Source: Psammoneis japonica (lineage: Eukaryota). From it: a DNA stretch of 64,000 bases. The notes under the pieces were generated by a model. It was not told the origin of the DNA. It searched no databases and worked only from the letters and a program-made list of their open reading frames with translations. Location: NCBI GenBank assembly GCA_008632985.1, contig QPGO01000016.1:344840-408839 (forward strand), read 5' to 3'. The position numbers and the translations under genes are program-made. Positions 13,951 to 60,845 of the stretch are shown here, one piece after another; positions within the stretch are counted from its first letter, which is position 1, and each line of letters begins with the position of its first letter.

Positions 13951-13959
13951 AGGTTTTGC

Positions 13960-16345: not shown

Positions 16346-16514
16346 GCAAATGCAACTTGGACAGCTGGCGGTTTTGATCACAAAAACAATGGTCCTCTGG
16401 TGCTCAATTGACAATGAGACCTGGTGCACAATGCACGTGCCAGGGCGACTGCATGACGCCACACACGCATGGACAATGCGCTGCTCATGGGGGGGGGGGG
16501 GGGGGGGGAATCGA

Positions 16515-30461: not shown

Positions 30462-30633
30462 TACAAGTTGTTCTGTCGACAAAGAAGCACTGTTAGATTT
30501 TGAGTGTGGTGATCTTTTTATACGGCGGCACCAAAGCCGGTGGTGTCATCGTAGTTTCCTGTTTGCCATACAGCAGAGAAAAGATGAGTGAGGGATACAG
30601 ATATAAAAATATTCGAGTCGGAGGATGCGTTAA

Positions 30634-31562: not shown

Positions 31563-32039
31563 TTAAAACAAAGCGTGCCTTCAGGCAAAAAGGTTCAAAA
31601 CAGTCGACGCGCCGCAAAACTCGACACAGAATCATGGTGCAAGACTGTCAAAAAGCTGACAATTAAATATGTTGTTAGACTTCTTTCACGACACCTGGTG
31701 CTGTTTTGTTTCGATGGAACTGCCGGAAAACGAACTCGAATGAGCGAGCACTGCAAAGCAACGATGTTGCCTTCGCCACATCCCTGCGAGAAACACGGAT
31801 GCGATCCGCCGCAGTTGATTTTTTGTGCACAGGCAAATGATGGAAATGAGTTCCTCAATCTCAACCATGCACTCGGCTCTCGAGAAAACTTGGTGCATCC
31901 GAAGCGCAAGCGCACTGGAGACATCCCGGCACCGATGCTTGAGGATGATTCGGAAGGAGAACCGTGTGTCGTTAAAAGAGGAGTCAGCAGCCCAACCGAC
32001 AACAGTGTCACTGTCGACCCTGTTCTGACAAGGCAAACG

Positions 32040-42377: not shown

Positions 42378-42999
42378 GACGACACAAGAGGGAGTGCTGA
42401 AACTGAAAATCAATAGAGGAGCAGACTTATGCAGTGACAGAGGCTTTCAATACAGTAGTTCTTGCTTTGATATAAGACACAACAGAGCAAGATACAGCGG
42501 GTTGGCAGGCACTCGCATGCCATGGCGAGTGACGAGTGATCATGATGCCGCATTGGCTTTCTGCGCGCACGCGGCACGCGAGCAACACTTTTTGCCACTT
42601 TCCAACTTCCTCTCTCTCTTTTTTTCGAAAAACGAGTGAAAAACGGGAAAACGTGTTGCCAGCGCGGCGCTTTTCCAACCGTAACTCGCAATGTGAAACC
42701 AGCATTTCATTGCCATCATGCCATGACTTGTGTAGATTCCACAGTGTCAGATGCAATCCAAGATGGCACACAGGAGGTGTTTCCTGCTCTGGGGCGCATC
42801 ATGTGGGGAGCCAGTGGGCGAAAGGGAGAGCCAGGCACCATGCTTGCCAGCACCATCGCCCCCTGCCAGAGCATGCATCGCAGCACTCTTTCGGTCATTT
42901 CCCTGCACAAAACAAATGTGCTGACACATGGCACAATGGCAATTTGTGAAGAGATGAGCAGTGCCAGTGTGACAACTCAGCTGTTGCTCATGCTCAATG

Positions 43000-45800
43000 T
43001 TGTCACAATGCAAGAGCTGCCCTTTTGCCGTGTGCTGCTGCCGTTGCCGTCGGCAGCATTGCTGTCCTTCATGACACCACAAGTTGCTCATTGCCAATCA
43101 TCTTCATGAGACATTGACCAACTCAAGGAATGGCCACAAAAAAAGAACAAGGACAAGTGGCTCCAAGAGAATGCCGGCAGCACTGAAATCCTCAGAATCA
43201 CCGCGGATGACAAAAAGGCACTCCCTGAAGAATTCTCTGTCTTCATCAAGTGCAAAAACAAAAAAGGAAAGTCGTTTGCGAGGAAGGCATCAAATTCCTT
43301 CAAGAGACTGCCCAAGCACCCCATTGCATCAATCGAAGCAAAGAGCAAAGATGCGCTGCGTTCATTGTTGGACGATCCTGACATCAACTTCGTTGAGGCA
43401 AATCACAAGATGCGTGCATTGCAGCCATTGGACCATTCCACAAAGCCATTGTCTCCCAAGGAACGAAACTGGAGTCTTGTGGAACTTGTCAGGTGCGGCG
43501 TCAAACTGGTTCAGGTGGACCAGATGTGGAACATTCCAAGAAGCTCTTGACAAGCAGCAAACATGACAGTGTGCGTCATTGACAGTGGCCACACATTTGG
43601 ACATCCAGATCTCCTGACCAAAGGTGTCACTGGGACAAATGCAGGAATCAGTGATTGGAAGGTCAATGATTGTGGGCATGGGTTGCATGTGTGCATGTTG
43701 CTTGTGTTGTTGTTGTCCCAATTTCCTGAAAGAGATTCCTTCTCTCCACCATCCTTTTGAATGACGGATGCTCAGACAGTCCCGCTCATGCCTGTTGACT
43801 TGTGCTTGCCCTTGCCCTTGCAGGTGGCAGGAACAACAGCAGCACTCAGAAACAACAATCTTGGTGTCAGCAATGTCCTTGGAAACTCAAATGGTTTCAA
43901 CCTGCATGTTGGCAAGGCATTGAACAACAGAGGTGATGGCTCTGAATTCTCCTGGTGTTGAAGGCCCTTGACGGATGCATGGCGGCAGGTTCAATGGTCA
44001 CAAGTGTGAGCATTGGGGGTCCAAGAGCAAGTGACCTGACCTGCAATGCATTCCAGAAGGTGCATGATGCCAGTGCCTTGCTTTTGACTGCATCCAGCAA
44101 TGCTGGTGACACTGCACATTCTTTTCCAGCCTTGTTCTCTGATGTCATGTTGGTGTCTGTAGTTGGAGAAGACAAAGACGTTGCAACTTTTGCCCAGCAC
44201 AATGACCAGGTGGAGATTGCTGCTCCTGGTGTCCACATTTTGTCTGCAGTCCCTGCATCTGGGGGACAATGCAGCATTGGTTCCTGGAGTGGTGCGTGTG
44301 TTGAAAGCCAGATGGACCAATGTTGTGGTGCGCCTGCACTGTGCCCTTCTTCTCTTTCTTCTTTCCACCAGGTGCAAGCATGGCAACACCTTTTGCAGCT
44401 GGCATTGCTGCCATGGTTTGGTCTCATTTTGAAGATTGTGCTGATCACCAAATCAGGAATGTTCTGATCTGAACCCACAAGAGACTTGGGAGAATCAGGT
44501 TGCGGCCACGACACCGGTTTTGGTGTTGTGCAAGCAAAGGCTGCGCATGATCTTTTGAAACGTGAAGAATGCACAGCAGGTGGTGAGTCTCCACAGCCAC
44601 TTTCAAAAGGAGCCGTGGGTGGTTGCCAGCAAGACCCTTCCTGTGCCCAGCCTCCCACTCCATCCCCTGCAGAGTTTCCACGTGACAAAAAGGTTTTCGT
44701 GCTCAATCTGACAACAGATGAGTGGGGCGAGGAGACCTGTTGGATGCTCATGAATTCAACAAAGGGCATCATCAATTCGGGGTCACATCGTGAAGCAAAT
44801 AAAACACACACCACACAGCTCTGTTTGCCCCTTGATGGCTGCATCTTCACCACAGAAGACACAGAGGGTGTGATGGAATCTGTTGCAAATGTGGAAACAG
44901 CAGCCACTCCCTGCACTTTGATGGGGAGCTTGAGAAAACTGGTGGCAAATTTGGAAGCAGGGAAGCAGTCAAGTTTGGTGCAAAAAGATCGTCTGACAAT
45001 GTTTTGTCCAAAGATGGTTCACCTCCCATGACTGGGATGCCAACTCCTTCACCTTCAAGCCCACATGTGCCCAACTCAAAGATGCCAAATCAGTCAATGG
45101 TTGATGGATGTGCAGATGATCCATTTTGGATTTTCAAGACAAAAAGAGGCATTGACAAGCCATGCAGATGTTTGAAATCCAAATCTGTGTCAAGATGCAA
45201 GCTGCTTGGCAAACGTGCAAACGGGGACCCAGCACATGGGATTGAAGGTTGTCCAGTCACTTGTGGGTCCTGCTCAGAACCGGGTGCAACTGACACAGTT
45301 TTGCCTTTGCCAAAACCGGCTCTGCCACTCTCTCCTGATTGCTCATCAACAATGACATCATCAATTCAGCCTGCAGCACCACGGACACTTTCCCCCTGCT
45401 CAAAGGCAAATGGTGCTCCCAACAAAAGCTCCAACATCATCTCCAACATCTGTGCCAATGATTTTGCCCACACTGTGACCAACATCTGCTCCAACGTTGG
45501 AGCCAGCTCCAGCAGAGCAAAATGTGGAATGTCGCAATGGCCCACTGGGCTGCTGGCACGATGCTGATGGAGAGCAGCACAACTGCAAATGGCATGGACA
45601 GGATGACAATTGTGAACAACATGGGACCTTCTTTGAAAACTTTGGTGCCATCATGATGGACGCCTGCTGCACATGTGGTGGCAGCCAAATGGTTGCAAAG
45701 ACTGTGGGTGCAATTTTGCTCCCTGCAAGGCCACCCACATCATCCCCAATGCCTTGGCCTGCTTCACCAACTTCAACTCCAGCATGTCAGCCTTCTTAGT
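43000..45800 (+). pseudogene. Subtilisin (S8) serine protease pseudogene
   Basis: Catalytic-triad remnants VCVIDSG..GHPDL (Asp), GHG/VAGTTAAL (His region) and SMATPFAAGIAA (Ser), plus NDQVEIAAPGV and DTGFGVVQAKAA. The C-terminal region has LTTDEWGEETCW and GDGICC. Frameshifts and TGA stops are present. Confidence 0.85.
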
Positions 45801-45867
45801 TGCCAACCATGCCTCCAACAAGCAAGCCAACTTTGATGCCTGTGAAATGTCTGGTTTCAACCCCACT

Positions 45868-46384
45868 TGCTTGTGAAAGCCACAATGGCAAAGATTTTTG
45901 ACTTTGCAATGTGGAGGGGGGAACTGCATGTTCAGCCTGTGTTGAGAGCTGGATGGTGACAGCTGTGACGATTGCTGTGAGTCCCGAGGGGGGCACGTGT
46001 CTGTCCTTGGAAACTGCAGCTGGCTGGGGAGTCTCATGCTGAGACACAGGTGGAGGGTCCTGCCGTGACAGAGTTCACAGCAGAATGTGCTCATGCTCCT
46101 TTGAGAATGCCCAGGTGAAACGACCGGTTTCTACCACATTTGCTTGTGAAAGCCACAATGGTGGAGATTTTCAACTTTGCAACATGGAGGGGGGAACTGC
46201 ATGTTCAGCACATGTTGAGCTGGATGGCGACAGCTGCAACGATTGCTGCGAGTCCCGAGGGGGGTCATGTCTGTCCTTGGAAACTGCAGCTGACCGGGGA
46301 GTCTCATGCCGAGACATGGGAAGAGGGTCCTGCCGTGACAGAGTCCACAGCAGAATGTGCTCGTGCTCCTTTGAAAATGTCCAG
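45868..46384 (+). repeat. Direct tandem duplication (period 273 bp) of a Cys-rich coding module
   Basis: tgcttgtgaaagccacaatgg at 45868 and 46141, with near-identical sequence through cagaatgtgctc.tgctcctttga. Confidence 0.9.
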
Positions 46385-47029
46385 AAACGACAACTGCACC
46401 AACACATGGATGTGCATGGAGGAGGAAACAGAGTGCTCCACATGCATCAAGTCACCAAGCAGCAGCTGCGATGATTTTTGTGAGCAACAAGGCGCAACCT
46501 GTGTTTCTGCCAAGAGAATCTCTGGCAATGAACCCAGCTGGTGGGGTGTGACAGGTGGCATGCATTTTGCAGAGAGAGTGCTGGGGATGGCTTCCTTTGC
46601 ACATGTCCATTGCCACAATCATGAAACCCAAGCCAAAGAAGCTCTGCATGCACAAAGCTCCTCTCTGAAGTGAAGCATGAGACCACAAAATGCCACTCGG
46701 CAGCTGCAGTGGGTGCTCTTCTATGATGTGCAGCTTGTCTGTTTCAGCTCAAATCACAGCACATTCTTCACAGTTTGCAGGCCCAATCATCTGTGATGCT
46801 CGCCGCACCCAACATTTTAAAATGACAAGAACATGCTTGACAATGCTCAACAGGGAGTCAACAAATTTTCAAGATGTCTGCTTCTGCCAGACGTTGCTCT
46901 TCCTGGTGTGTCAACCATTCCAAAACGCACGTGCACCTCGACCAGTGGAATGACGTGCGCCATTGAACAAAGGGCTCACAACTTGGACTGGCTCTGAGCC
47001 ATGGCTTCAGCAGCCTCCTGGGCTTCCTT

Positions 47030-48100
47030 CCTTTTCGCTTCTGACATGTTGATGCGGAACATCAGGGTCAAACGATCCACCTCCATGCTGACAGGGGCAG
47101 CCTGGATTCCGTGATTTGATTTGCAGTTGTGTGCTTGCCGCAAGGCTTGGTGTTGATCCAGGTCACTGTCATTCCCTTCTTGGGAGCAATGACAGTTTCA
47201 GTCTCCATGCAGGGAAAGAAGATGCTGGCACCACCATTGCTGAGGCACAAGACAGTTGTGGTGGTGGCAGAAGACTGGTTGTGATGGTTGACATTGTGGC
47301 ACATCTTGGTGGGTCCACAACCGGGCTTGGCACACTGGGCACACATGCAGTCCTGCTGCTCCTCTTGGCTTGGCCAGAGGGTGGCAATTTCATCCATGAC
47401 TCGACCCACCAATTTAATGTCATCCTCGTGACTTGCAGACATGGAGAAACGGAAGCATTCCTTGTCTTTGAGGTGCTTGTGAGAGACTCCAGCACAACGT
47501 CCAAAGAGCTCCACATCATCTCCAGCACAAAGGATGGCATCCGTCAACTCATCAATCACCTTGTCATCAAAAACGCTGGAAATGGTCCAGATTCCAGGGT
47601 CTTGGGTGACAAGCTCAGATTGAGCAGACTCCTTGACGTGTGGATGCATCCAAGGAGCAATGGTGTTTTCTTCATTCTTGGAGTCAGATCCTCCAAGACA
47701 ACGATGGTCGATGCAGCACTGTTCGCAGGTGACGCACTTGGACATGTCCCCACCACAGAATGACCTCAACTTGTTGCCAAGCAGTCTCCGGTCATCAAGC
47801 TCATCTTCTGACAAGAGAGCAAACTTCAAGTCACCAAGCAGGTGACATCATTCTGAGCAGCATTTGTCGCAGAGCCACATGTCCCCACTGCAGATGCTCG
47901 AACCAGGGCGGCACTCTGGACACCACTTGTTGAACAGAAGGCAGGTGGCATGGGGGCAAAAATGCCAAAGAAACCCATCTTTGTTGAAGTGTCAAGGCCC
48001 GGAGGGTTGCAACACAGTTCTGGCAACAAGGTTGTGTTCAAAGCAGCTGTCTGCATGTGAAAGTTGAACAGAGGACTGAGCAACTCGTCGTTCACCAGAA
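47030..48100 (-). pseudogene. Prolyl 4-hydroxylase-like 2OG-Fe(II) oxygenase remnant
   Basis: LVTQDPGIWTISSVFDD and TTVLCLSNGGASIFFP...VIAPKKGMTVTWIN resemble the P4H pattern T.L.YL....GG.T.FP....V.PK.G.A..W.N. Confidence 0.55.
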
Positions 48101-48229
48101 GATCCTGTTTTTTCCGTCAGCGTCATTTCTGCTGAAAGGAAGAATTGAAACAGTGGCGGGTCAATTCTTGTGTGCACATTGATGCATGAAGTCGAAAATG
48201 TGTGGCAATGCTGCACATGCAAATGTTCA

Positions 48230-48631
48230 AGGGTGGTTGGTTGCTGCTGTTTTTAGCTTGAATTCGGCTGAATGGCTCATGTTTTGCATCGTGATTCTTC
48301 CTGAATTTCACCGTGCTTCACCGTGGTGAAAACAACAAGCCACAAGTCTGTGATGGAGGAGGTCCGTCTGCCAACTCTTGTTCATTTTATGTTTGTCATG
48401 CATCAAAGATTGCACACACCTGAAAAGTTGGCAGATGGCAAACTGCATTTTTGAGAAACATCGATGATTGTCATTGTCATCATGCTTTGATTGCAGTGCT
48501 GATGGTTCTCATTTTTGTGCACAATTGGGTGTGACTGTGAACAATTCTTGCACTCAAAAACAAACACTGCAAAAAACCTCATTCAAATGCAATGGCAATT
48601 TTGGGGGATGGGCAAGGAGATGACCCCCCTT
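48230..48631 (+). mobile_element. Mutated copy of the 31008-31403 MITE
   Basis: It shares tgaatttcaccgtgcttcaccgtggtgaaaaca and is collinear to the gatgaccc TIR remnant. Confidence 0.88.
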
Positions 48632-49299
48632 CTTGAGACTGAACAAAGATGTTTTTTGAGCTGCAGATTCCCGCGCAAATGATGAATGAGGTTCATCCCT
48701 TTTTCATCACATGAAGGAACATCACTGCTTTTGGATCACACAACCATGGTGAGGCCAACATCGTCCTTGCATGCTGATGGGTGTGGTTGAAAAAGATGCT
48801 GCTGCTGAAGCAGCGTGTCATTTGGTCGTCCACTGTCACATCATGCATGCCATGAAAGACATGGATGACAGTTCAAAAAAGGCACCAAAGAGTTTGGCCA
48901 CTTTTTTGCTCATCTCGACAACATGACTTGCATGGGTGATGAGCACTCAACACAAGTCAACGACCAAGTCAGGGGCATCAGTTTTTGGGCAGATGGACGG
49001 CATTGGAGCCATGGATGATGCCAAGCATGTTTCATCAAATTTTGAGCAGCAACTAAAAATGACATGTCTGTTGGTGTGTGTGCTTTTTGCAGCAATCTTG
49101 GGTGCTGCTGAAGCCAATGAGCAAGCATTGCTGGGACACATGGGTGGCTGGACATGTTTCTCAACAATTGGCCAAGAGCAGTGTGCCATGAGCAGTTTGT
49201 GTTCTCAACAGCGGGTGACTGTCAATTCAAACCCTGCGATCCTTGTGGTGAGTGCACCATTTTTTTAATTTGCTGCACAGGTGGTTGTTGGGTGAAACA

Positions 49300-51950
49300 T
49301 CTGGCACGTGTTGTTTCATTCCTGTGGCTGGGAGTCACGTTTTCCAATGCACGCTTCTGCGGGATCAGCATCGCTGCGGGGACAGCCTGCAGACACAGGA
49401 AAGCAAGTTGCATCATTGGTGGCTGCAGTGGGGATGCCTGCTGCATCCCAGTTTCATCATCAGGTCTGAGGAATGACAAAACATGAAAAAAATGCAAACT
49501 TGTCAGCCACTCTTGTCTCATCGAAATGGCTCTGTCAACCAAGCACGATTTGCCATGCAGCAGCAATGCCACACGCCAGCAGCATCGCAAAGAGCATGAG
49601 CAAGAAGGAGAGAAATGGCTTTGCAAATGATTTTCATCTTTTTTGTTCAAGATTTGGCTCAATGCTGTTTTGTGGACCTCAAGTGGATGAGACTCAACAG
49701 TGGCCAGAGAGACACTCGACTCTTGTTTTTCATTTTGAGACTCTTTGTCACAACACTTTTTAATTGCCGGAATCACAAAAACAACTGTTCAAACAGACAT
49801 TTCAAAGACTTTTAAACCACCAGCAGAAAGCTTCCAGTTGACTGCTGTGCACAATTGTGCAATCTGATGTGGAATTGGCATTTTTTGTGTCTGCTTTTGG
49901 GGTTCTTTCCTGGGGTTTCAAAAAACACATTCCAGATGGGATGAATTGATGTGGTCTCAAGTTTTGGCTCAGCTTCCTCATGCGGTGCTTTCTTTTTGCT
50001 TCCATTTTACTGCCAAAGCACAAGGCAGTGTGAGACACTGGGTCCCACATGTTTCCTGAGGCAACCAGTTGCATTTGTGGTCATCGGGGTTGTGGGTTTT
50101 GTCACCAGGGCAGTCACATGCCCAATGAAAGTGGTTCACTTGGTTCTGAGCACACACTTTGCATTGCTGTGCCAATGCACAAGAGCCAAGAAGTCCATCA
50201 GAAATGCACACACAAGGGTGGGTGCAATGACACTTTCTTCACTGCCTGTCCAGCAAACACCCAGGTGCACACGGGTTCTTTGCTGCAATTTGTGGAAACT
50301 CCTGAGTGGCGCTGCTTGGAGCTGTTGGTGACCACAGTTCCTGCGCTGAAAACCTGTCAGCAACTTTGTCCTTTTGCTTCCCAGCTTGGCAACTTTGGAA
50401 GATGACAGGTGCACAGAGGCGACATGTCCCAAGATCAGCCAGGCTTCCAGCTGGTTCCCGGCAGCCTGCTTCATGCACGACAATTCACTGACCGCAAGTT
50501 CATGTGCAAATCTCTCATTTTGGGTCACCTGGGTTTTGCCCATGTGTGGGAGCATGCCAACCACAAAGTCTTCTCAAGGAGGCAGGTGTCACAACAGCAA
50601 GTGCCCAAAGTGATCTCCAACATGCAACAGCTCTCCACACAAATGTGCTGCTGGTGGCAACTGCTTTCCGCCTCAAGCTTGCCATCATGTTGCTTGCCAG
50701 GTCTGCAGGCACCATTTTTCTTTTGCATGGTTGACCAACCATGAACTTAAGGCAATTCCAGCTGCTTTCATGAGAGAGAGAAGTTTTTGGGGTCATTTTG
50801 ACACTCAACTCAAAAACAACATTGCCAAATCTGTGGGGTGATCTGGGTTTGCTCGCACAGTTGGTTTTGCACTGCTTGGGTTCATTTCAGCAACCTTGTG
50901 CATCAACTTTTGAGTGATGCATCAAGACTTGCAAAATCTTTTGAATGCAACAGGCCCACATTTTGGGGTGGAGTGTGCCGCGATTCGACATTTTCTTCTG
51001 CACACAGAGAAGCCACATGTGATCTGCTTTCTCACATTGTTGTCAACATTGGCAGCACTGCTTTTGCAATGTCACAATCAAAGTTTTGTTAAAATGGCTG
51101 CATGCCATCATGCAACTTGCACACAAAAATGGCAGTCGATGCTCAACTCTGCTCGCAGATCAGCAAACGGAGTTGCTTTGCCACATGTCTCGCAGCACGG
51201 GAGCTTTTGTCACCCCCAGCTTGAAAGCAGCTGGCGCTCTTTGAGAAAAAGAGTGCACTGTCTGATTTGCAATGTCCCAAGATCCCAATGAACAAGTCTT
51301 TTGATGGTTGGGAGCTTTTGTCAAAACTTGTGAAAACTTGCATGAAAACAAACAAAACTTCGATCTCAAGATCAGAAGCCTTTTGTGTTGCTGGTGCGGC
51401 GCAGCTGGTGGCGGAGCAATTAAAAAAAAAAATGGAAAAAGAAGAGCAGCCACCTGTTTTGACACACTGCAGCAGGTCTTGTTGGTGCACCAAAGCATTC
51501 CCAAGTGAGTGAAAATGTTGTCCTCTGTTCAATCGCTGCATGTGCTGGCCGCCAAAAATTGTGTGGCTGCACCCACAGAAATGTGTTTTTTGAATCATGC
51601 ACACGTGGTGCTGCTGAGAAACCTGAAACACATCTGCTGCTGCTGCTCTTGTGATGCACCACAATGCCATGACTTGCATTTTGCCATTTTTTTCTCTTGC
51701 CATTTTTTTCTCTTTTGTTGGGAGCAAAAAACTCATGGAAAACATCGATGCTCAGCAACTTGGCTGGTCCTCTGTTTTGCCATGGCTTCTCTTGTTGGTG
51801 TGGCACAACACACCAAGAACCAGACCATCAAACTGACCTCGGGTTCTTCTTCTTCAACAGAAGAATTGCTCGGAGGAGTTGAGGAGGACATGGTGTGGGA
51901 CAGTTTCACAGAGACATGTCCATGCAGGTCAGAGTGCGCTCTCTTGGTGC
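49300..51950 (-). mobile_element. Possible degenerate hAT-like transposase remnant
   Basis: Minus strand ~49500-49620 reads PFLSFLLMLFAMLLACGIAAAWQIV..SHFDETR, loosely like the hAT dimerisation motif FP.L..LA......A..ERVFS. The support is weak. Confidence 0.3.
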
Positions 51951-52230
51951 CGAGCTTTTCTTGTGCCGGGTCCCGTGTCGCCGCTGGGAACAGTCTGTTG
52001 CCGCAAAAACAAAAATTTAAAAACATGTGACTAACGGAAAATGCCAAAAATGCCATCTACAAAGCTTAATACTTTACAAATAGCATATAAAAATTCATTC
52101 ATGTTTATGTCAGTCTTGTTTATGACATAAATATCGGGAATAGCTCGGCGTTTTCAATGTGCATGATCGATGATCCGAGTAAGTACGGTGTGGGGGCTGT
52201 CAACGTTTTTCTTTTATGTATTGTTGCTGG

Positions 52231-52648
52231 CAGCGTTATAAAATCGTTAACTTTCTCCCAACAATCACGGATTGCAACCATCGATTGCGCGCGGCTTCGC
52301 AGCAATCGAAAGATCGCAACACGCGCGCGCTTGCCACGTGCAACAATCGATTGCAATCCCGATCGCGATTGGCCCCCGCGCGGAATTCGCGCGCCCCACG
52401 CAGGGGCGCCCCACGCATTTTTCGTGAATGAACACCACGTTTCGGTCAATTTTTAGTCCCGTGTGCGCTGAAAATCCCGATTCACGACTAAATTTTAGAC
52501 ACGAATCGATCGCGATCGATCGCGAACGCGATTGCGATCTTTGTGACCAGCGCCAGACAAACAATCAGCAGATTGCAATCATTTCGATCGCGATCCGCAA
52601 TCGAATTGCAAACAGGATTGCAATCGAGTTAGCGATTTTATAACGCTG
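52231..52648. mobile_element. hAT-type MITE with 22-bp TIRs and 8-bp TSD, unmutated and CpG-rich
   Basis: TIR CAGCGTTATAAAATCG(T/C)TAACT at both ends and TSD GTTGCTGG at 52223-52230 and 52649-52656. The interior has CGATCGCG/CGATTGC subterminal repeats. Confidence 0.92.
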
Positions 52649-52685
52649 GTTGCTGGTGAGAGCTGCTGCTCATTTTGACCTTTGA

Positions 52686-53288
52686 TTGATCGAGTCATTC
52701 TGCCAGTCTGTTGATCTGGACGAGGACGTCATGTCTATCAAGGAAGATGCAAAATTCTATTGGGTCAGGTGCTCCGACGGAGTCTGCCTGGCCATGAGCG
52801 AGGAAAGGTTGGAGCGCATCTTTGATCTCATGCCGACGCTTCGGTATCTACTCGTGGGACACCCTATATGAAAGCAAAGGAGCCACGAGAACTCCCGGAT
52901 GGTACTCTTATCCTCGATATTCCCAGTGAGTTAAAGTTTCGCAAAAGGCGTTTTTGCAATTGATCAATTGCATCTTGGAAGTAGAGCCTCTTCCCCCTCG
53001 TGTAAACCAGAACGATGACAACAGTAGTTTGTCGATGCTGACGCATACCATGGCCACTTGGGTGGATGCGAGGTTCTCGAACAGCGTCTCAAGGATCATC
53101 ATGCTAACCCTTTGACTCCTGAAGAGGATATCAACAACGACTACGATTGGCACGTTGTGGGAATGGAGGACACGGGTGACATCCGAACGAACGAGATGAC
53201 TCAACTTGCCGACGCCGGATACACATGCACCAAAAGCACTTTCGATGGAGTCACGGTATCCCATCTCTATCGAAAGAAACGTGGATAA
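52686..53288 (+). CDS. Possible small hypothetical gene (frameshifted fragments)
   Basis: Two collinear ORFs (52686-52871 and 53058-53288) have protein-like composition in normal-composition DNA. Confidence 0.3.
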
Positions 53289-54399
53289 CTGCTTGAACTT
53301 TGGGGGTTGCGTGTCCTTTGGCTCCTGCGATTGAGCTCTGTGGGGGTAATAAAGCGCGAGAATACCTGTTGTCTCAAGTTCCAATTTAGCTATGTAGATG
53401 CCGGACGTGGTGGAATAGTAGCACTATCTTAGCATGATTATGTACGCCTTAGAAATCACAGATGTGGATCACAAGGTGGTGCATCTGTTCCAGGGCTTGA
53501 TAAGGTTATCGTGTATCACGAAGACTTGAGAATGCTAGCGAGATTCTCCTTTCAGCCCGGCACTGCTCAGTGCCGGTAGAACTTTGCATTTGGTCGATAA
53601 AAGTGGTGAAGTCGCTATAACCACGGTGCCTGCATTGAAGACGGAAGGCTCCGCCCGATCAGATGGCAAAGGAAAGGATCATGCTCGCAGCACCTTCTTC
53701 AACCACCACCCCCAGAGATATTTCCATGCTTGAGGCAGAGTCAAATGGTTTCTTTTAAAAATGTTCTTCTTACTGTTTGCTGAGAAACGGTGCTCAAAGC
53801 TGTAAAAATCAACAACTCCCTTTCAACAATTCCTCAAGGATTCAAAACTGGAACAATGACAACTTTCTCTAGCCTGGTCCTTCTCAACGTAAGCCTCTTT
53901 TGCATTTCTTCACCGCCAATGAGAAAAAAACTCAACTCAAAACAGAGGCACTCCACACCACAAATGGACAACTGTTTTGCATGACAGCTTTTTTCTGCTG
54001 CCAGATTTTGTGTCATTGGTGTGATGAGCAAAAAGAAAAAGACCAGCAGATGGTGGCAACTCTGTGGGTTGAGTCTTGGTTCTTGGATGAGCAAGAACAG
54101 GGAGCTGGGATCATTGGCAAGCCTCATCTGCATCCTTGCTGATTTTTTTATGCGCCAAAGAATGCATCAACCAAAAGGTCACCTGTGCACTTTGTTCTAC
54201 TTGCTGACATTGAGCAACTCCTGACTGAGTTTGAAGCTTTTCAGCTGGAGCATGCTCCATCTGTCATTGACAGTCTCAACAACTGGGACATTTTGTCTTT
54301 TGTCACAGTGTGGAGTGGCCAAAAAGGAAGCGTGAAAGTCAGACAATTTGGGGAAGTTAGTCCAGGGTGGTTTGGGAGGTGGAGGTGGAACAGAGAAAA

Positions 54400-55345
54400 A
54401 GAGCTGTTGTTGTGGGAGCAGTGACCTAAAAGGAAGGTGCAGAAATGATGGTGTCCAGCACTGCCCACCAAGTGATGGAGGGTGAAGGGGAGAAAGAAGA
54501 AGCCAGCTTTGTCAACAGCAGCAATGGCAGAAGAGCCATTGGCAAAAGCAGTGTTGCATTGCTGAAGTTTGTCCAGCAGGGCACTCCTCAGGTGAGCTTT
54601 GGCAAGAAGGTTGGGAGACAAGCAAACCAGGTGCAGGGCAGGAAAGAGCTGCAGGAACAGTGACATCAATGGCAAGGATGGGACAGTGACATTTGCAGCA
54701 GGAATGATTGCACCAGTGCTCTCTGTGTGCAGTGTTGGGCTTGAAATTGTTGCTGAAGCTGCAATTTTGTTGGTCAGGGACTGTCTGCCCAGATGCACAT
54801 GTGATGAGTTCATGTGTGCCATTGTCATCTGGCAGTGCATTGTGGATGACAGACAATGCAGCAGGATGAAAGTGGGTCATGCAGACAGAAAATGAGGGGT
54901 TTGGGAGAGGGACAGAGTGGCAAGGTGTGTGTGCAATTTGGTCAAATGGTGGGCAAGTTGATCAGGCAGCAAGGGACCTGTTGGCCACAAGACCAAGGCT
55001 TTGGAGGTGTTGCTGGAGTGGGGCTTGGTGGGAGGCCAAAGCGGGTTGCTGAAAACGCATCCTTTCACTGCAAGGAGGATCCCTGGAGGCAAGCATTGGG
55101 CACAGGTGCATGCAGCGTGGGCAGCTGGGGGTGCTGAAAGGAGGGCTTGGGCTGCCCAGCTGTCCAAGGCAGAGCAGGAAGGGATGGGGTGGTTTTGGTT
55201 GCAGCAGCAAACTTGCTGTGGGTTTTGTGATTGCTTCTGAACTTCTGCTTGGTGCTCACATTGTGTGCACCCTTGGCAAAAGGGTCAAGAGTGTGAGCAG
55301 ACCAACTGCTGCACATGGTCAGACTGCGTGCAGATGACAGTCAGA
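54400..55345 (-). mobile_element. Degenerate non-LTR (RLE-type, CRE/R2-like) retrotransposon 3' part; probable 5' part at ~60850-61400
   Basis: LAIDVTV ... AH ... FLPFT ... G.AG...FL resembles the C-terminal restriction-like endonuclease, and TCASGQ is a zinc-knuckle remnant. 61230-61260(-) reads FRFCCPVHP, like an N-terminal zinc finger. Confidence 0.45.
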
Positions 55346-58300
55346 TGTTTTAGATTGACAAGCAGATCTCTCTGAGATCTGCTTCTCTCACTCTTTCTTG
55401 TCAGTGCATGCGTTGTCACTGTTGCCAGGTTGCAGGGAGGACCCTTGCACTTGTCATCACTCTCAGCCACCACCATTCTGACAGGTCATGGCCCTGCAAG
55501 GTTCGCATTTTTTTGCACTGCAGTCCTCGCTGTGATCCACTCAATTTGTGAGCCAATCAAGCCAGCATCATTTTTGATCCTGGCAGAGATGTTTGCTTGG
55601 AGCCAAGATGATTTTTTAGCCACAGGACAATGCTGTGCTGGCTTCTGCATCTGTTTGATCAAAAACAGTTGCAAAACTCCCACCATCTTGTCAAGATCAC
55701 CATGGTGTTCCAACCACACCCTCACTGCAACAAGGCTTCCAAGCACCTGAAACATCTGTGTGGTGGTTCTAAACCTGCAGAATCAAAAGATGGTGTCATT
55801 GATCTCACTCTCACAAGAGCACACCACCAATCACATGATCCCCCAGAGACTGGAGACCCCCAAGGACAAACTGCCAGTTGCAGCATCCCTCCATCAGAAG
55901 TTGCCTCTTGGGATCATGACTCCAGCCAGTGACTGTGCTCCATCTCATCTCTCTAAAGAGACAAATGCTGGATCACAAGATCAAGACTGCTCTCAAAATC
56001 TGCATCCCTGAAGGCAATCATTCAGATTGGTGCTGGACATGTCTGCTTCAGTCCAGACATGTGGCGTGCTTGTTGGGGCTGGAGTGAGTTTTCTGATGCA
56101 GCTTCCCCCCCCCAAGCATGCACCCAAGACCCCAGCATCATCATCTGCAGGATCAGGGTCAGCCAACATCTCTGATTTGATCAATGCACTGAGTGACAAC
56201 CATGCAACTTCAAAAAAAGCACCCCCCTTCTGGTGGGTGGCCACACATGTGTCACCCCTTCTGCACAACTGCAACTTTGTCATCCAAACATTTGTTGAAC
56301 CTGGATGCTCTGCCAACAAAGGACATCCACCAATGTTTTGATCACAAGTTTGCCAAAAGAGTGATTCCCCAGAACTCACTTGGGCCTTTTGATGATGGAA
56401 ATTTGTGCCATTTGGATGGCACAAACTGCCTCATGTTGGCTGATGGACTGCTGTTTGTGATGGATCTCATGCCAGACCACAAGGTGGCACCCCCTTGTGA
56501 GCCAAGTCTGTGTCATGACAACTTGCCACATGGCATGCACCAGTGGTGTCTGAACGTTTAGAGGCATGCAAGTGATTGTGGGTGCTGTGCTGCTCACCAT
56601 TGTGGAGCTTCGTGCACAACCACGGTGGTGACTGGGGCTTTGCTGTTGGAAACAAAACACTTCCAATGATCTCCCACAATGAGCGCAACACATTCATTGC
56701 CTTGAATCATTGTGCATGATTCACAAGCTCCTCTTGCACTCAGATGGCTTCCCCAAGAACAGCCAGCCATGTCACATTGTTGCCTCTTGCTGTTGCAGTG
56801 GGTGCAATTCATTGAAGCAGATTCCATGTCAAGCACACCCACCAGCATTCTGTGATGAAGTGCCCAGCTTGGTGGACTCACATCCAAAACAAGGCAACCT
56901 GTCAATCATGGACTGCTCAGTTCCATTCAATGATTTTTTGCAGCTCTGTGCCTTCATTTTTGACACTGACTTCTCTTTGGATGACAACCAAGTGATCAGC
57001 ATCTTTGTCAAGAATGCCAAGTGCTCTTGAAGTTCTCGATGTGTGTCACCAAGAATGACCGTGCATCTCCAGCTCATCAATGCAAGTGAACTGCAAAGCA
57101 AATTTTGAGCAATGAAATGTTGGTGCAAACAATGGTCTTCAAGTGTTGGATCCTCCTGAACCAGATCCCAATTCTCCAGACCTGGTCCCAGATGATGTGT
57201 TGGCTCCACATGACAACACTTTTGAGATGTCATGCAAAGAGTTGGAAGCAACAGATTCAAGATGTTCCTCCTGCAGATGACAATCATCTCCTGCATCATG
57301 CCCACTCAGCTTTGGTGCACAAGCTCAAGGCATTGGCTGCCAGCCAAAGCTGCCAAACATCCACGATGTTTTGTGTGTGGCTGCTGGCAATCATCTGTTT
57401 GATGATTGCCCCATTCTCCAGAATGACCCACATGTCAAGGGTGTTCACACTCAGCTCTGCCAATTTTTGAAGTGCAAGGCTGCTCAACATGATGCAACCT
57501 TTGCTGGCAACCAAGGTGACTTGCCTGCTGGACAGAATGGGCAGGCTGTCCTTCTGACTGAAGCTCCACTGCCAGGTTTGTGTGGGCCATTGCAGCTGCC
57601 AGCAGTTTCAGATCCATGATGCAGCCCATTCTCTCCTTCCTGAGACACAGCCAATGATGGTGTGGCAACTGAGAAAAAAGGACTCACAATTCTGTTGCCC
57701 TTCCACTGACACAAACCACTTTCTTCACATGTTGACATTGGCCAGAATCAACTCACCAGTCCTCTGACAAAACCTGTTGTTGCACAACTCTCCCTGACAA
57801 AAATCCCATGGGAGGGCTGAGGAAACTGTTGAGCTTTTCAATTTGGAGTGTTCCAAATGTTGCAAGGACTCAGGGTTTGCCATGCTTGACTCAATTTGAG
57901 TCTGGCTCTCCATCCATGCCACAGTGGATTTCACCAAGCTGAGCATCATGAAGCTTTTGAAGTCAATGCTGTCAATTTTTTGAATGATGAATGTGGTGTG
58001 CAGTTTGACACTGGGGCCTGTGTCTCCTGCACCAATGAGTGAGATCTCCTCTGCCATCATCAGGCAAATGGTGCCCCCAAAAATCCATGCCCATTCAAGG
58101 TCAATCCAGTGCCCAGACAAGCTGCTGTCCCTCACAGCTGCAGCTGTCTGTGTGCTCCAGCAGAAACCAAAGAGGGTCATGTTGCCATCCATGCATGCTG
58201 CCACCCCAAGCTGCAATTGACTTTGGCAGACAAAAATGCTTTTTACATGGCTGGTGGCAGGCACAAGCAAGATTTCATGGCAGATTGTTTGTTGAAGTTC

Positions 58301-60845
58301 CACGACCATGGTGCGCACAAGCATGTTGCAAAAGCATCACTTCCATGCCACTCAAGACACACTGTCCATGGTCAGCTGATTGACAGCAAGCACCTTGCTC
58401 ATCCCTTGATCCTCCCAGAATTGGATGACATGCTAGATGAAGCAGCATTGGACCTCAAGAGCACAGACCCTGATTTTGCCAAGGAATGCAACATGCTGGT
58501 GGTGCATGTGATTGATGCCTGCAAGGAAAATCAAGAAAACACCCTCATGGAGCAATGAAAACTCATTCCATGCACATGTTAAGATGTGCCTTTTGAGACT
58601 TGCCTTGAAGATCAAGCACCCATCCAGCTGCTCAAGGCCAGTGCAGAACACTTGCTTTGGCATCAACACCTCAGACATCCCAGTGACCATTGTTTGCACA
58701 ATGCACACAAATGCATCAAGGTTGCTCCCAAGTTTGCTCATGGCACTTCCCCTTTGTTGGACACTTGCCCTGCTTGCAACTGAGCAAAGCAGACAAAAGA
58801 CCCTGCCAGCCCCAACTTGATGCACTCAATGACTCAGCCATGCCAAGGTCCAATGGTGGATTTTGCCTTCTCTGGTGTCAAATTGAAGAATGAAGAGTGT
58901 GCTGTGGGGACCATGCAGGACTCAACAGTGAGACTTGTTGGGCTCCTGTTCATGACCGCTGCACCAGTTGTCTCCATGGTGCTGCTCATGTTTCCAAGGC
59001 CATGCCAATTGAATGCACCCATCATTTTTTGGAGGACCACTCACCACAATGTCAAGACAAATGTGTGGCTGTTGATCAAGGTGGTGATCAGCACAGAAAT
59101 CCAGCAGTGCAAAGACTTTTTGAGCAAGATTTTTGGCACACTGTGAGCCCTTCTCTGTCACAGATGCCTCCAATCAGAGTGGCATCATTGAGCACAGTTG
59201 CTCCACCATGCAGAACACAATCCAAGTCATGCTCATCAGAGCAGATTTGCTGGTCAAGTTTTGACCACCACATGCTTTCCATCATCATTGCACTCATGTC
59301 AAGAGTGCAGCTCCATTAAAAGATCAACATGTTGCTCCCATTGCTCTTGCCACAGGAAAGGCCAAGGACTTGGTGATGTTTTTTGCACATTTGGTTGCCA
59401 TGCACAAGCTTGCAAGAATGCCAAACACCCTGCTGTGATGTGCTCCAACTCCAAAAAGGGCATCTTCCTTGAGCACATGCTGGACAGACACTGCCAAGAG
59501 TGCTGTGTGGCATGACCCTGAGTCCAGCCTCATCAAGGTGGACAATCATTTTTGCTTTGACAAAGGCATGAATGCCCTTCCCCACAATCAAGCACTGCCA
59601 GATCATGTCATCCATCTTCAACTGACACAGAATGGCAAATCATTCCCAGCCAAGGAGAGGAAACTTCAATGGAAAAATTTCATTTTTCTGGTGTTCCCTT
59701 TGCCAAGACTCCAACACACACACTGCAACAGCCCACATCGGATCCAATGTGTGGCACCACTTTAAAGGTTGATTAGCTGTTTGATCTTGCACACTTGTCA
59801 CATGTCAAACATGGCAGTCCCATGGCTCACCTGCCCTTCAAGGCTGCTCAGAACAAGATCGTGGGTGGGTGCATTGGTTTGACCAATGGCACAGATGTTT
59901 TCACTCAGCATCATGCTGAAGCAGAGCTCCAAGAATGACTGCATGATTTGGGCACCCCTTTTTTCAAAATTGTTTTTGTGCTGAGGCAGCACTCCAATGT
60001 GCTTTGATTGAATCTGAGCTGCCCCCTCCCAAAGAGGAGCATGTGCCTTGACTGCAATGGCGGTTGTGCATGCTGTTGCAGCTTTGCATTTTCCTGATGT
60101 TGATTTCTCCACTTTGGATGATGTGGAGCCCAAGTTGTTGCCAACAATTGACAATGAATGTTGCACACTCAACAATTTTGTGATTTTGTCCCATGCTGTC
60201 ACCCCAGAGGAGCAGGCCTTGGATGGTTTTGCCCATGACAAGCTCAAGCATCAACTGCCCATGTGGGAAAAATGGCAGGACGAGCGTGAGCTCACTCAAC
60301 TTGACCATTTTCATGTGTTGGGAATGTTTGGGTGAGCCCAGGCACCAATCAAGCAACTGAAGGATGCTGCAATGCTCTGGCCACATTGGCGGTGCAATGG
60401 TGCTCTTGATGCTCTTGATGCTGTTGTGATGGACCCTCTGTGCTGCTCCTGCTTTTGCTCATCATGTGTGGAGCAACCCGCTCAACAATTTTTTTGCACT
60501 GTCAGAATTGATGGGTTGTGGAGTGTGCTCAAGCAACATCCAAGATGCTTGCACTCACTTGCCAAGTCTTTCGACTCCAGTGTGCACTCAGACAAATGAG
60601 GCTCGCGCTGCTTCGCATGAAAGCTGCTTTGGCATTGAGCTTGATTGACCCATGGCAGGACACACATGCAATCAAGATTTTTGATGCTGATGGCAAAACA
60701 CTTCACCAACCCATCAAAGACATGGCTCTGTTCAAGTGCCTTCTTGGACTTTGTGCTGGTTTCAGCAGCACCCACTCCAACCCGCATCACGGCACTGCAT
60801 CAGCTGCGTGTCACATCTGCGTTTGCCGGGCTCTCAAGTCATGAA
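55346..60845 (+). mobile_element. Degenerate Ty1/copia (CoDi-like) LTR retrotransposon, 3' truncated
   Basis: Putative LTR TG..CA at 55346-55483, then GGTCATGGCCCTG (copia PBS is GGTTATGGGCCCAG). Integrase-tail remnants FGC...SKKGIFLEH and HFCFDKGMN follow. RT remnants are ELTQLDHFHVLGMFG, LWPHW, CCDG, SSCVEQP and THAIKI. Confidence 0.8.

What the first reader, a model, noticed from the sequence alone, without database searches (positions are those of the whole stretch)
42690..52030. Candidate undescribed genome-defence mutator: region-targeted TpA->TpG/CpA hypermutation together with CpG decay
Seen: about 40% of the window (~1-430, 8720-15950, 16345-17060, 42690-52030, 53900-61250, 63170-64000) has almost no TpA, reduced CpG and a large excess of TpG/CpA, while the intervening genes are normal. 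These domains coincide with transposon debris and duplications. TpA loss looks more complete than CpG loss. Established: CpG->TpG/CpA follows 5mC deamination (DNMT5-type CG methylation marks diatom TEs), and fungal RIP goes the other way, CpA->TpA. Neither removes TpA. Inference: a second activity makes A:T->G:C transitions specifically at TpA in repeat/heterochromatic DNA, in effect an inverse RIP. Candidate mechanisms are a TadA/ADAT-like DNA adenine deaminase, a modified T or A that mispairs, or error-prone (Pol eta-like) repair triggered by T:G mismatches. I know of no description of this, but I cannot search the literature.
Basis: partly seen in the sequence, partly recalled or inferred. 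Interest (0 to 1): 0.95.

Follow-up and report, generated by a model that had tools for sequence, protein, structure and literature searches.

The report
TpA-erasing hypermutation domains in a diatom
Several multi-kilobase stretches of this diatom DNA have had nearly every TA step and most CG steps rewritten to TG or CA, the mark of a locally aimed mutation process reported only once before, in an unrelated alga, and whose enzyme is unknown.

Summary
Six stretches (26,022 of 64,000 bases) have TpA O/E 0.03-0.19, CpG 0.09-0.44 and TpG/CpA about 1.4-1.9, with borders sharp to about 50-200 bases. In 42494-52017 there are 19 TpA against 372 expected.

It is mutation, not native composition. A dispersed repeat has an unmutated copy at 31.0 kb. 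Its copy inside the domain carries TG/CA where the other has TA or CG. Duplicates inside domains differ by transitions with TG<->CA swaps. High-depth exact contigs of a public run carry the same letters.

Surviving TpA are mostly YTAR, and RTAY is gone (0 against 431). This fits a strand-symmetric preference for 5'-TAY.

It is not undescribed. A 2026 preprint shows de novo TpA->TpG/CpA hypermutation of integrated viruses in Bigelowiella natans. My searches found nothing on diatoms.

New here are the host lineage, saturation, the added CpG decay, the flank preference, and targeting by region rather than by repetition. The enzyme is unknown.

The scan's index held one superficially similar note, from a phage.

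The parts
42494..52017 (.). TpA-erased, CpG-poor domain 1 (the finding)
   Evidence: TA is 19 against 372 expected, CG O/E 0.33, TG 1.75, CA 1.81. Run X1 contigs match it exactly at about half the flank depth.
48235..48631 (+). Mutated copy of a dispersed repeat inside domain 1
   Evidence: 74.5% identical to 31024-31405, but 91% in a purine/pyrimidine alphabet. Of 24 TA steps in the outside copy, 18 are TG/CA here. Of 27 CG steps, 20 are TG/CA here. k-mer depth reaches about 14,000 in X1 against about 59 for single-copy flank.
30630..31566 (.). Unmutated copy of the same repeat in a normal, genic region, with inverted ends of about 170 bases (30630-30798 / 31408-31566)
   Evidence: Local TA O/E is 0.77-0.91 and CG 1.19-1.26.
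45842..46396 (+). Tandem duplication (about 273 bases) inside domain 1, its two copies mutated independently
   Evidence: 86% identical, 96.5% in the R/Y alphabet. There are 28 transitions and 5 transversions, with 6 CA<->TG swaps and 8 CG<->TG/CA steps.
8722..15964 (.). TpA-erased, CpG-poor domain A (C-rich tract around 13000-14000)
   Evidence: TA is 19 against 282.9 expected and CG O/E is 0.25. The internal duplicate 9931-10241 / 12239-12567 has 45 transitions and 25 transversions.
15965..16329 (.). Unmutated TA-rich island between two mutated stretches
   Evidence: 30 TA in 365 bases, CG O/E 1.52, G+C 0.39.
16330..16989 (.). TpA-erased stretch ending inside a 177-base tandem array (16522-17046)
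   Evidence: TA is 2 against 25.8 expected. The last, partial repeat unit (16986-17046) keeps two TA. One of them is in GTAC. The same positions read TG/CA/CG in the two units inside the stretch.
52018..53890 (.). Normal island between domains 1 and 2
   Evidence: TA is 74 against 73.2 expected and CG O/E is 1.15.
53891..61213 (.). TpA-erased, most CpG-poor domain 2
   Evidence: TA is 15 against 286 expected and CG O/E is 0.09. X1 contigs lie at full depth (62.1 and 59.6) with 7 and 6 other letters.
63169..64000 (.). TpA-erased stretch running off the window
   Evidence: TA is 1 against 32.5 expected and CG O/E is 0.34.
1..440 (.). Weaker TpA/CpG-poor edge of a stretch that starts before the window
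   Evidence: TA is 5 against 17.2 expected (P 6e-4) and CG O/E is 0.43.

Best explanation
These stretches are regions of a diatom nuclear genome in which a locally directed DNA mutation process has converted nearly every T:A pair at TpA steps to C:G, giving TpG or CpA depending on the strand hit. A second, slower and separable process has converted most CpG to TpG/CpA. That second process is most likely deamination of 5-methylcytosine in silenced, methylated DNA.

The TpA process is strand-symmetric. It chooses the strand independently at each site. It works about 3.5 times faster when the adenine is followed by a pyrimidine (5'-TAY, which reads 5'-RTA on the other strand). It is aimed at a region with sharp borders rather than at repeated sequence as such.

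Shown: the composition, the borders, the direction of change at the sites that can be compared, and the flank preference among survivors.

Inferred: that the process acts on DNA in place in vegetative cells and independently on the two homologues. Also inferred: that silent chromatin sets the target.

The enzyme is also inferred. I think a TadA/ADAT2-type adenine deaminase acting on DNA (A to hypoxanthine, read as G) is the single most likely one, at about 0.4.

The same signature has been seen arising de novo in Bigelowiella natans.
For: Composition and borders. The total YpR share is unchanged at 0.2415 against 0.2432.

Direction of change: in the one repeat with a copy outside and a copy inside a domain, 18 of 24 TA steps of the outside copy are TG (6) or CA (12) inside, and 20 of 27 CG steps are TG/CA. 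Transitions hit 20 of 50 positions in TpA against 16 of 178 other A/T positions. Loose ends of other family copies in run X1/X2 also read TA and CG there (table 7).

Differences between duplicates are mostly transitions. Identity rises from 74-86% to 88-96.5% in a purine/pyrimidine alphabet. Copies inside domains show CA<->TG swaps at one step, 3, 6 and 6 of them.

Of the 29 best-supported variant rows that lie inside domains, 8 turn the window's TG/CA into TA and 12 into CG.

Flank classes of surviving TA, in domain cores of 22.8 kb against normal parts of 36.5 kb: RTAY 0 against 431, YTAY 7 against 376, RTAR 10 against 406, YTAR 30 against 213. Fisher P for the YTAR share is 1.4e-13. A two-rate strand-symmetric model (kY/kR 3.5) predicts 1.4 surviving RTAY.

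Regional, not repeat-induced: the high-copy repeat at 30630-31566 is unmutated, while domain 1 lies mostly at single-allele depth.

Real letters: X1 contigs at word depth 30-62 match the domains. One of them covers 3,704 letters with no difference.

Two processes: CpG O/E ranges from 0.0 to 0.69 among 500-base windows that all have TpA O/E of 0.1 or less.

Precedent: 231 of 302 new mutations in B. natans lines fell in two integrated-virus regions. Nearly all (230 of 231) were A>G or T>C, and all of those fell at TpA.

Deaminase context: wild-type TadA edits UACG, and evolved TadA editors prefer TA/UA (passage in PMC12265680).
Against: No new mutation was observed here. Everything is comparative.

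Direct copy-to-copy comparison rests on one repeat of about 380 bases and three small duplications.

The composition arguments assume the ancestors resembled the normal parts of the window.

The runs are one sample and one study, may be the data the assembly came from, and have no library type on record.

Among the 11 variant rows outside the domains, 4 are also CA->CG, so only the ->TA class (8 of 29 against 0 of 11) is specific to the domains, and the numbers are small.

In the repeat pair, the direction of products by flank class is only 9 for and 6 against the 5'-TAY model (my count from the list).

No transposon or viral gene was recognised, so 'silenced foreign DNA' is not shown.

Nothing in the window identifies the enzyme. 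Sequence alone cannot tell an adenine-targeted event from a thymine-targeted one.
Confidence: 0.72

Rival explanations
1. Same regional TpA process, but the primary target is thymine. A TET/JBP-type hydroxylase makes 5-hydroxymethyluracil (or a further modified base) at TpA in silenced DNA. This base mispairs with G at replication and gives T>C.
For: In dinoflagellates a TET/JBP homologue makes 5hmU, 5hmU is enriched on repeats, and blocking it activates marked transposons (abstract and passages of PMC11572971). Early work reported 5hmU preferentially in TA and TC contexts (quoted in PMC11071213). 5'-RTA on one strand is the same site as 5'-TAY on the other, so the flank data fit equally well.
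Against: Base-resolution mapping in Breviolum found no sequence preference. That 5hmU:G mispairing would be efficient enough to erase 95% of sites is my inference, not a cited result. No 5hmU has been reported for diatoms in anything I saw. No TET/JBP gene is in the window.
Confidence: 0.18
2. One activity causes both losses. It could be a deaminase that acts on both A and 5mC/C in DNA. Or it could be an oxidase of 5-methylpyrimidines acting on T in TpA and 5mC in CpG, since both are methylated pyrimidines before a purine in a palindromic step.
For: Both losses occupy exactly the same stretches with the same borders. ADAT2 enzymes of amphioxus and Trypanosoma are cited as acting on A and/or C in DNA (preprint Results).
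Against: The extent of CpG loss varies widely (O/E 0.0-0.69) where TpA loss is uniformly complete. In B. natans, 230 of the 231 mutations in the two hypermutable regions were A>G/T>C. The single other change gives a GC>AT rate there of 3.9e-9, against 3.4e-10 in the rest of that genome. The preprint never mentions CpG. The target base sits on different sides of the step (T[A] against [C]G). CpG retention shows no flank effect (0.18-0.27) where TpA does.
Confidence: 0.1
3. Sequencing or assembly artefact: modified bases in heterochromatin are miscalled, and the real DNA has TA.
For: The pattern is regional, as a DNA modification would be. The library type of the runs is not on record, and they may be the assembly's own data.
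Against: Contigs built from exact 31-letter words at depth 30-62 reproduce the domains. One has 3,704 letters without a difference. Noisy signal-based reads would not give this. An artefact would not leave different outcomes (TG in one copy, CA in the other) in tandem copies. Nor would it create a 10% divergent second version at complementary depth. The same signature was found with Illumina reads in B. natans.
Confidence: 0.03
4. RNA-level A-to-I hyperediting (ADAR-like) of retroelement transcripts before reverse transcription and insertion.
For: A>G with a 5' U preference is the ADAR signature (preprint Discussion).
Against: TG and CA products alternate at random along the domains, with no strand-coordinated runs (z -1.4 to 0.9, like the normal parts). 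One border cuts through a tandem array. The mutated repeat has inverted ends and no reverse transcriptase. No retroelement proteins were found. A divergent second version sits at the same place. That ADARs are known from animals only is recalled, not checked.
Confidence: 0.03
5. Native composition or selection: foreign DNA (for example viral) that never had TA and CG, or selection against TA and CG in these stretches.
For: No homologues were found that could show what the DNA once was.
Against: The repeat copy, the tandem units and the variant rows show TA and CG at the homologous positions of less altered copies. Selection cannot plausibly remove 95% of one dinucleotide from non-coding DNA while leaving total YpR unchanged.
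Confidence: 0.03

Closest known systems
TpA-specific local hypermutation of integrated viral DNA in Bigelowiella natans (Mettrop et al., bioRxiv 10.64898/2026.01.13.699255; I read the abstract, Results and Discussion and ran term searches; supplements not seen)
   Same: A:T>G:C transitions at TpA giving TpG and CpA on either strand. The changes are confined to discrete regions, and the rest of the genome is ordinary. The long-term footprint is low TpA with high CpA+TpG in clusters of windows, mostly unannotated.
   Different: There it was seen arising de novo in mutation-accumulation lines at about 6e-7 per site per generation. It hit recognisable giant-virus and virophage insertions that still hold many TpA (rho 0.45), with no CpG effect reported and no flank preference reported. 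Here it is inferred from comparison and taken to near-saturation (O/E 0.03) in a diatom. It comes with strong CpG decay, a 5'-TAY preference and no recognisable viral or transposon genes.
Repeat-induced point mutation (RIP) of fungi
   Same: A genome-defence-like hypermutation by transitions at one dinucleotide. It leaves sharply bounded, gene-poor, compositionally odd blocks and unrecognisable repeats.
   Different: RIP changes C:G to T:A, mostly CpA to TpA, so it makes TpA and AT-rich DNA. Here TpA is destroyed and G+C is unchanged. RIP is triggered by duplication. Here a high-copy repeat outside the domains is untouched, and low-copy sequence inside them is mutated.
CpG decay by deamination of 5-methylcytosine in methylated repeats
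   Same: CpG to TpG/CpA loss confined to the silent stretches. No flank preference.
   Different: It accounts for only about half of the TpG/CpA gain and for none of the TpA loss. Methylation itself was not measurable here.
TadA/ADAT2 adenine deaminases, including ADAT2 enzymes reported to act on DNA
   Same: The target is an A preceded by T/U. The natural TadA site is UACG, with a pyrimidine after the A, as in the 5'-TAY preference inferred here.
   Different: These are tRNA enzymes. Action on chromosomal DNA domains is a hypothesis in the preprint and here. No such gene could be examined.
Thymine hydroxylation by TET/JBP enzymes (5hmU of dinoflagellates, base J of kinetoplastids)
   Same: A DNA-level mark on T that is enriched on repeats and linked to transposon silencing. 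Older reports describe a TA context.
   Different: It is an epigenetic mark, not known to erase its own sites by mutation. It is not reported from diatoms in what I saw.
ADAR/APOBEC hyperediting of retroelements and viruses
   Same: Enzyme-driven transition clusters in selfish DNA.
   Different: Those are strand-coordinated and act on RNA or single-stranded intermediates before insertion. Here there is no strand coordination, and the change is tied to the locus.

Membership tests
TpA-targeted local hypermutation (Bigelowiella natans type) | Changes are A>G/T>C at TpA, giving TpG or CpA | tested here: met
   18 of 24 TA steps of the outside repeat copy are TG/CA inside the domain. Transitions hit 20 of 50 TpA positions against 16 of 178 other A/T positions. 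TA retention is 0.05 with matching TG/CA gain.
TpA-targeted local hypermutation (Bigelowiella natans type) | Confined to discrete regions while the rest of the genome is ordinary | tested here: met
   Six stretches with borders sharp to about 50-200 bases. Normal parts have TA O/E 0.54-0.62.
TpA-targeted local hypermutation (Bigelowiella natans type) | Targets are integrated viral or other foreign sequences | tested here: inconclusive
   0 of 259 stop-free frames and 0 of 3 read-through frames reach a Pfam cut-off. phmmer of the longest frame gave 0 hits. One dispersed repeat fragment lies inside.
TpA-targeted local hypermutation (Bigelowiella natans type) | Arises de novo at about 1000 times the background rate in growing cultures | not testable with these tools
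   Only indirect evidence. Collinear contigs about 10% divergent from domain 1 lie at complementary half depth. 8.5% is expected if two copies mutated independently, while flanks and domain 2 differ by 0.2-0.3%.
Fungal RIP | C:G to T:A transitions, mainly CpA to TpA, making AT-rich DNA | tested here: not met
   The direction is opposite: TpA is lost, CpA/TpG are gained, and G+C is 0.49 against 0.47.
Fungal RIP | Triggered by sequence duplication | tested here: not met
   The high-copy repeat at 30630-31566 is unmutated. Domain 1 contigs lie at single-allele depth.
5mC-driven CpG decay | CpG lost to TpG/CpA in the affected DNA | tested here: met
   20 of 27 CG steps of the outside repeat copy are TG/CA inside. 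CG O/E is 0.09-0.44.
5mC-driven CpG decay | The DNA is CG-methylated | not testable with these tools
   No methylation data are available. That diatom repeats are methylated is recalled, not checked here.
ADAR-type RNA hyperediting fixed by retrotransposition | Strand-coordinated clusters of A>G within discrete retroelement insertions | tested here: not met
   The runs test of TG against CA order gives z -1.42, 0.9 and -0.09 in the three domains. No reverse transcriptase was found.
TadA/ADAT2-like DNA adenine deaminase as the agent | Preference for A after T and before a pyrimidine (UAC-like) | tested here: inconclusive
   Survivor classes fit a 3.5-fold preference for 5'-TAY. The same data fit a T-targeted 5'-RTA preference. 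No enzyme was examined.
TET/JBP thymine hydroxylation as the agent | 5hmU or base J present at TpA of the affected DNA | not testable with these tools
   No modification data and no genome to search.

The most novel reading that the evidence does not exclude
A chromatin-region-directed DNA mutator with 5'-TAY (RTA) specificity is shared by diatoms and chlorarachniophytes, and so is old within the SAR supergroup. It is active in vegetative cells. It erases essentially every TpA of silenced DNA at a thousand or more times the background rate. It acts independently on the two homologues of a diploid cell. It is not triggered by repetition. This would be a class of eukaryotic genome defence distinct from RIP. 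Its enzyme would be a natural A:T-to-G:C editor of chromosomal DNA, either an adenine deaminase or a thymine hydroxylase.
Probability: 0.4. Interest if true: 0.92.

Novelty: new member of a known kind. Interest (0 to 1): 0.78.

Why it matters
If this holds, TpA-directed hypermutation is not a peculiarity of one chlorarachniophyte. It would be a wider way in which algae disable DNA.

A diatom case widens the search for the enzyme, which would be a natural chromosomal A:T-to-G:C editor. Some diatoms can be transformed and gene-edited (recalled, not checked here).

It would also explain why a large part of such genomes shows no recognisable transposon or viral genes.

It creates long false reading frames by removing TAA and TAG.

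It distorts dinucleotide-based and homology-based annotation.

It can create extreme local heterozygosity.

Tried and rejected
Whole-genome search: no genome is held for this window. Genome-wide profiles, transposon consensus spectra and a proteome search for deaminases or TET/JBP could therefore not be done.

What the domains once were:
- Pfam on 143 stop-free frames of 90 aa or more and on 116 frames of 60-89 aa gave only 9 weak matches, all below the curated cut-offs.
- The one suggestive match (gag_pre-integrs, E 0.0047, 58583-58780) was not backed by read-through translation of 57500-61401 in the three + frames, which matched 0 families.
- phmmer of the 373-aa frame 43900-45018(-) against 1.84 billion proteins gave 0 hits.
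- The long frames are about what loss of TAA/TAG gives by chance. Observed maxima were 342/373/211 aa against simulated 95th percentiles of 350/348/293.

Rfam and tRNA scans of the window found nothing.

Strand-coordinated mutation clusters were not seen.

Sequencing runs:
- No RNA holder is listed.
- Run X3 laid nothing, and run X2 leaves many bins of the domains without cover.
- I draw nothing from these blanks.

I considered reading the uneven depth of X2 as expression and rejected it, because contigs cannot show levels.

Literature:
- Seven full-text searches found no paper on TpA-directed mutation in diatoms.
- The 'YAC' hits in PMC9399415 were yeast artificial chromosomes.
- PMC11884799 was not relevant.

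Earlier notes of this scan: none on this genome. One note on a phage island has a similar composition. I did not test it.
Full report
THE OBSERVATION

Six stretches have lost nearly all TpA: 1-440, 8722-15964, 16330-16989, 42494-52017, 53891-61213 and 63169-64000. Together they are 26,022 of 64,000 bases, or 40.7%.

In 42494-52017 there are 19 TpA. The window's normal parts (0.0391 TpA per base) would give 372 (Poisson P 1.7e-130). CpG O/E is 0.33, TpG 1.75, CpA 1.81 and G+C 0.491.

The other long stretches give 19 against 283 and 15 against 286 TpA, with CpG O/E 0.25 and 0.09. Normal parts have TpA O/E 0.54-0.62, CpG 0.92-0.98 and TpG/CpA 1.0-1.2.

The four YpR steps together take the same share of all dinucleotides in domains (0.2432) and normal parts (0.2415). 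The TpA and CpG deficits are therefore balanced by the TpG/CpA gain, as transitions within YpR steps predict.

The borders are sharp.
- On the right of the stretch in question, the last residual TpA is at 51421, and dense TpA starts at 52018.
- On the left, dense TpA ends at 42493, followed by single TpA at 42682, 42733 and 44160.
- The left 200 bases are TpA-free but still CpG-rich.

THE ORGANISM AND ITS GENES

No genome is held. The normal parts carry ordinary, mostly unspliced genes. These include phosphoglycerate kinase, PhoD, an MscS channel, a VWD protein, a proteasome subunit, a Notchless-like WD40 protein, LytB, a globin, an epimerase, an EF-hand protein and a 5'-nucleotidase. In one search, 9 of 13 frames from normal parts matched Pfam. 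In one search, 7 of 33 did.

The kinase is 77-84% identical to proteins of many named diatoms, and no identical protein is listed. The source is therefore a diatom whose proteins are not in that collection.

The domains gave no credible Pfam match:
- 0 of 143 frames of 90 aa or more and 0 of 116 frames of 60-89 aa reach a curated cut-off.
- Three read-through frames across 57500-61401 matched nothing.
- The longest frame (373 aa) has no relative among 1.84 billion proteins.
- Such long frames are close to what loss of TAA and TAG produces by chance.

'Transposon debris' is therefore not demonstrated by homology. What is there is a fragment of a dispersed repeat, two tandem duplications and one internal duplication, plus a few segments with very high word depth in a public run.

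WHY IT IS MUTATION AND WHICH WAY IT RAN

A repeat with inverted ends lies unmutated in a genic region at 30630-31566, where local TpA O/E is 0.77-0.91. A copy of its inner part lies in the domain at 48235-48631. The two are 74.5% identical, but 91% identical once purines and pyrimidines are merged.

Fates of steps in the outside copy, as read in the domain copy:
- Of 24 TA steps, 6 read TG, 12 read CA, 2 are kept and 4 are otherwise changed.
- Of 27 CG steps, 9 read TG, 11 read CA and 3 are kept.
- Transitions hit 20 of 50 positions within TpA, against 16 of 178 other A/T positions.

Loose ends of other copies of this family in the public runs also read TA and CG at these places (table 7). The domain copy is therefore the derived one.

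Copies that both lie inside domains differ mainly by transitions: 17 to 3, 28 to 5 and 45 to 25. They show CA against TG at the same step 3, 6 and 6 times. This is the expected result when an ancestral TA (or CG) was resolved independently in each copy.

At 16522-17046 a 177-base tandem array straddles a border. The last partial unit keeps two TpA, one of them in GTAC. The two units inside the stretch read TG, CA or CG there.

PUBLIC READS

One sample of one study holds the stretch. It may be the source of the assembly, and its library type is not on record, so it is not independent support for the assembly. It does bear on the artefact question.

Contigs built from exact 31-letter words match the domains. 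One matches over 3,704 letters without a difference, at word depth 30-37 in domain 1 and 60-62 in domain 2. The flank depth is 58.7. Noisy, signal-based reads would not give that.

Changes among all laid contigs are mostly transitions: 537 of 669 in X1 and 320 of 382 in X2.

The 40 best-supported variant rows were shown, and 662 more were not. Of the 29 rows inside domains:
- 8 turn the window's TG/CA into TA.
- 12 turn it into CG.
- 1 turns CG into CA.
- 8 are other changes.
- Two of the first 20 rows (57490 and 57491) are adjacent in one contig and together make a TG-to-CA swap.

Of the 11 rows outside domains, 4 are CA to CG and none makes TA. The TA class is therefore the one specific to the domains, on small numbers.

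TWO VERSIONS OF DOMAIN 1

All domain-1 contigs that match the window lie at about half the flank depth. A collinear contig over 46656-47840 at depth 27 differs at 122 of 1,185 letters. In X2, five contigs between 43.6 and 47.8 kb differ by 7.6-13.5% (pooled 10.2%), at about half that run's flank depth.

If two copies of an unmutated ancestor were mutated independently to the observed retention, 8.5% difference is expected. The flank and domain 2 differ from the reads by only 0.2-0.3%.

My reading, at about 0.6, is that these are the two homologues of a diploid cell. On this reading domain 1 was mutated after they separated. That would mean a recent, fast process acting on DNA in place. A paralogue elsewhere, with a hemizygous domain 1, is the alternative. 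I could not lay reads a second time to settle this.

ANATOMY OF THE PROCESS

The 47 surviving TpA in the domain cores are not a random sample. By flanks they are:

Flank class | Domain cores | Normal parts | Retention
YTAR | 30 | 213 | 0.225
RTAR | 10 | 406 | 0.039
YTAY | 7 | 376 | 0.030
RTAY | 0 | 431 | 0

The Fisher P for the YTAR share is 1.4e-13.

This is what a strand-symmetric process gives if the A of 5'-TAY is hit faster than the A of 5'-TAR. RTAY offers the good context on both strands, YTAR on neither. Two rates with a ratio of 3.5 reproduce all four classes and predict 1.4 surviving RTAY.

The products agree in bulk. RCAR (1.72-fold) and YTGY (1.49-fold) rise more than RTGR and YCAY (1.35-fold each). 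In the single repeat pair the direction is only 9 for and 6 against (my count from the list).

The same data can be read as a preference for T in 5'-RTA.

TG and CA products follow each other at random (runs test z -1.4 to 0.9, as in normal DNA). The strand is therefore chosen site by site. The power of this test is limited by pre-existing TG and CA.

CpG retention shows no flank effect (0.18-0.27). CpG O/E varies from 0.0 to 0.69 among windows whose TpA is uniformly gone. This points to two processes, the TpA one being faster.

Targeting looks regional. The high-copy repeat outside is untouched, while low-copy sequence inside is mutated.

WHAT IS KNOWN

Seven full-text searches found one directly relevant paper: the 2026 bioRxiv preprint 10.64898/2026.01.13.699255 (abstract, Results and Discussion read).

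In 15 mutation-accumulation lines of Bigelowiella natans:
- 231 of 302 new nuclear point mutations fell in two integrated-virus regions.
- 230 of them were A>G or T>C, and all of those were at TpA.
- The rate was about 6e-7 per site per generation, a thousand times the background.
- Only some of the lines were affected.

The authors also found clusters of TpA-poor, CpA+TpG-rich windows, and they propose an ADAT2-like DNA adenine deaminase. The text does not mention diatoms, CpG or flanking bases.

I found nothing on diatoms.

For the enzyme, two leads fit the 5'-TAY/RTA site.
- TadA-type deaminases: wild-type TadA edits UACG, and evolved TadA editors prefer TA/UA (one passage of PMC12265680).
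- TET/JBP thymine hydroxylases: in dinoflagellates these make 5hmU on repeats and silence transposons (passages of PMC11572971). Older reports describe a TA/TC context, which base-resolution mapping in Breviolum did not reproduce (passages of PMC11071213).

VERDICT

The best explanation is a regionally aimed TpA-to-TpG/CpA hypermutation of DNA, together with separate CpG decay (confidence 0.72). It is the same kind of process as in B. natans, here in a diatom and at saturation.

Among enzymes I favour a DNA-acting adenine deaminase (about 0.4) over thymine hydroxylation (about 0.2) and a single dual activity (about 0.1). An artefact, RNA editing before insertion, and native composition are each at about 0.03.

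I class it as a new member of a known but barely described kind.

The scan's own index had no note on this genome. It had one superficially similar note on a marine phage, which I did not test.

Noticed in passing
window 30630-31566: A 937-base element with inverted ends of about 170 bases (30630-30798 against 31408-31566, 78% identical). It sits unmutated between genes. Words of its family reach depth of about 14,000 in run X1 against about 59 for single-copy flank, so it is a high-copy, MITE-like repeat.
   Followed up: partly
window 43900-45018 (-), 9363-10388 (-), 12748-13662 (+): Stop-free frames of 373, 342 and 305 aa inside the domains have no homologues. They are about as long as chance allows once TAA and TAG are gone, so gene callers are likely to annotate false proteins here.
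   Followed up: yes
window 15965-16329: A 365-base island with 30 TpA, CpG O/E 1.52 and G+C 0.39 lies between two fully mutated stretches. It is either a later insertion or a protected element.
   Followed up: no
window 13000-14000: A C-rich tract (G+C 0.57, GC skew -0.40, CA far above TG) with many degenerate internal repeats that are visible only in a purine/pyrimidine alphabet.
   Followed up: no
window about 16490-16520: A run of about 20 G sits inside the unit preceding the 177-base tandem array (seen in alignment A2). It may be a homopolymer assembly problem.
   Followed up: no
window 53074-53392: In run X2 a 319-letter contig here has word depth 474, against 11 for the flanking gene in the same run. 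In X1 the region is near single-copy depth. X2 is clearly not an even genome library, and I draw no conclusion from it.
   Followed up: no
window 25880-26936 (-): A LytB (IspH) gene is split over two frames (25880-26551 and 26412-26936). The cause is an intron or a frameshift.
   Followed up: no
window 42494-42700 and 52270-52330: Both borders of domain 1 abut short CpG-dense tracts (for example GCGCGC runs). These may be unmethylated islands that mark the edge of the targeted region.
   Followed up: no
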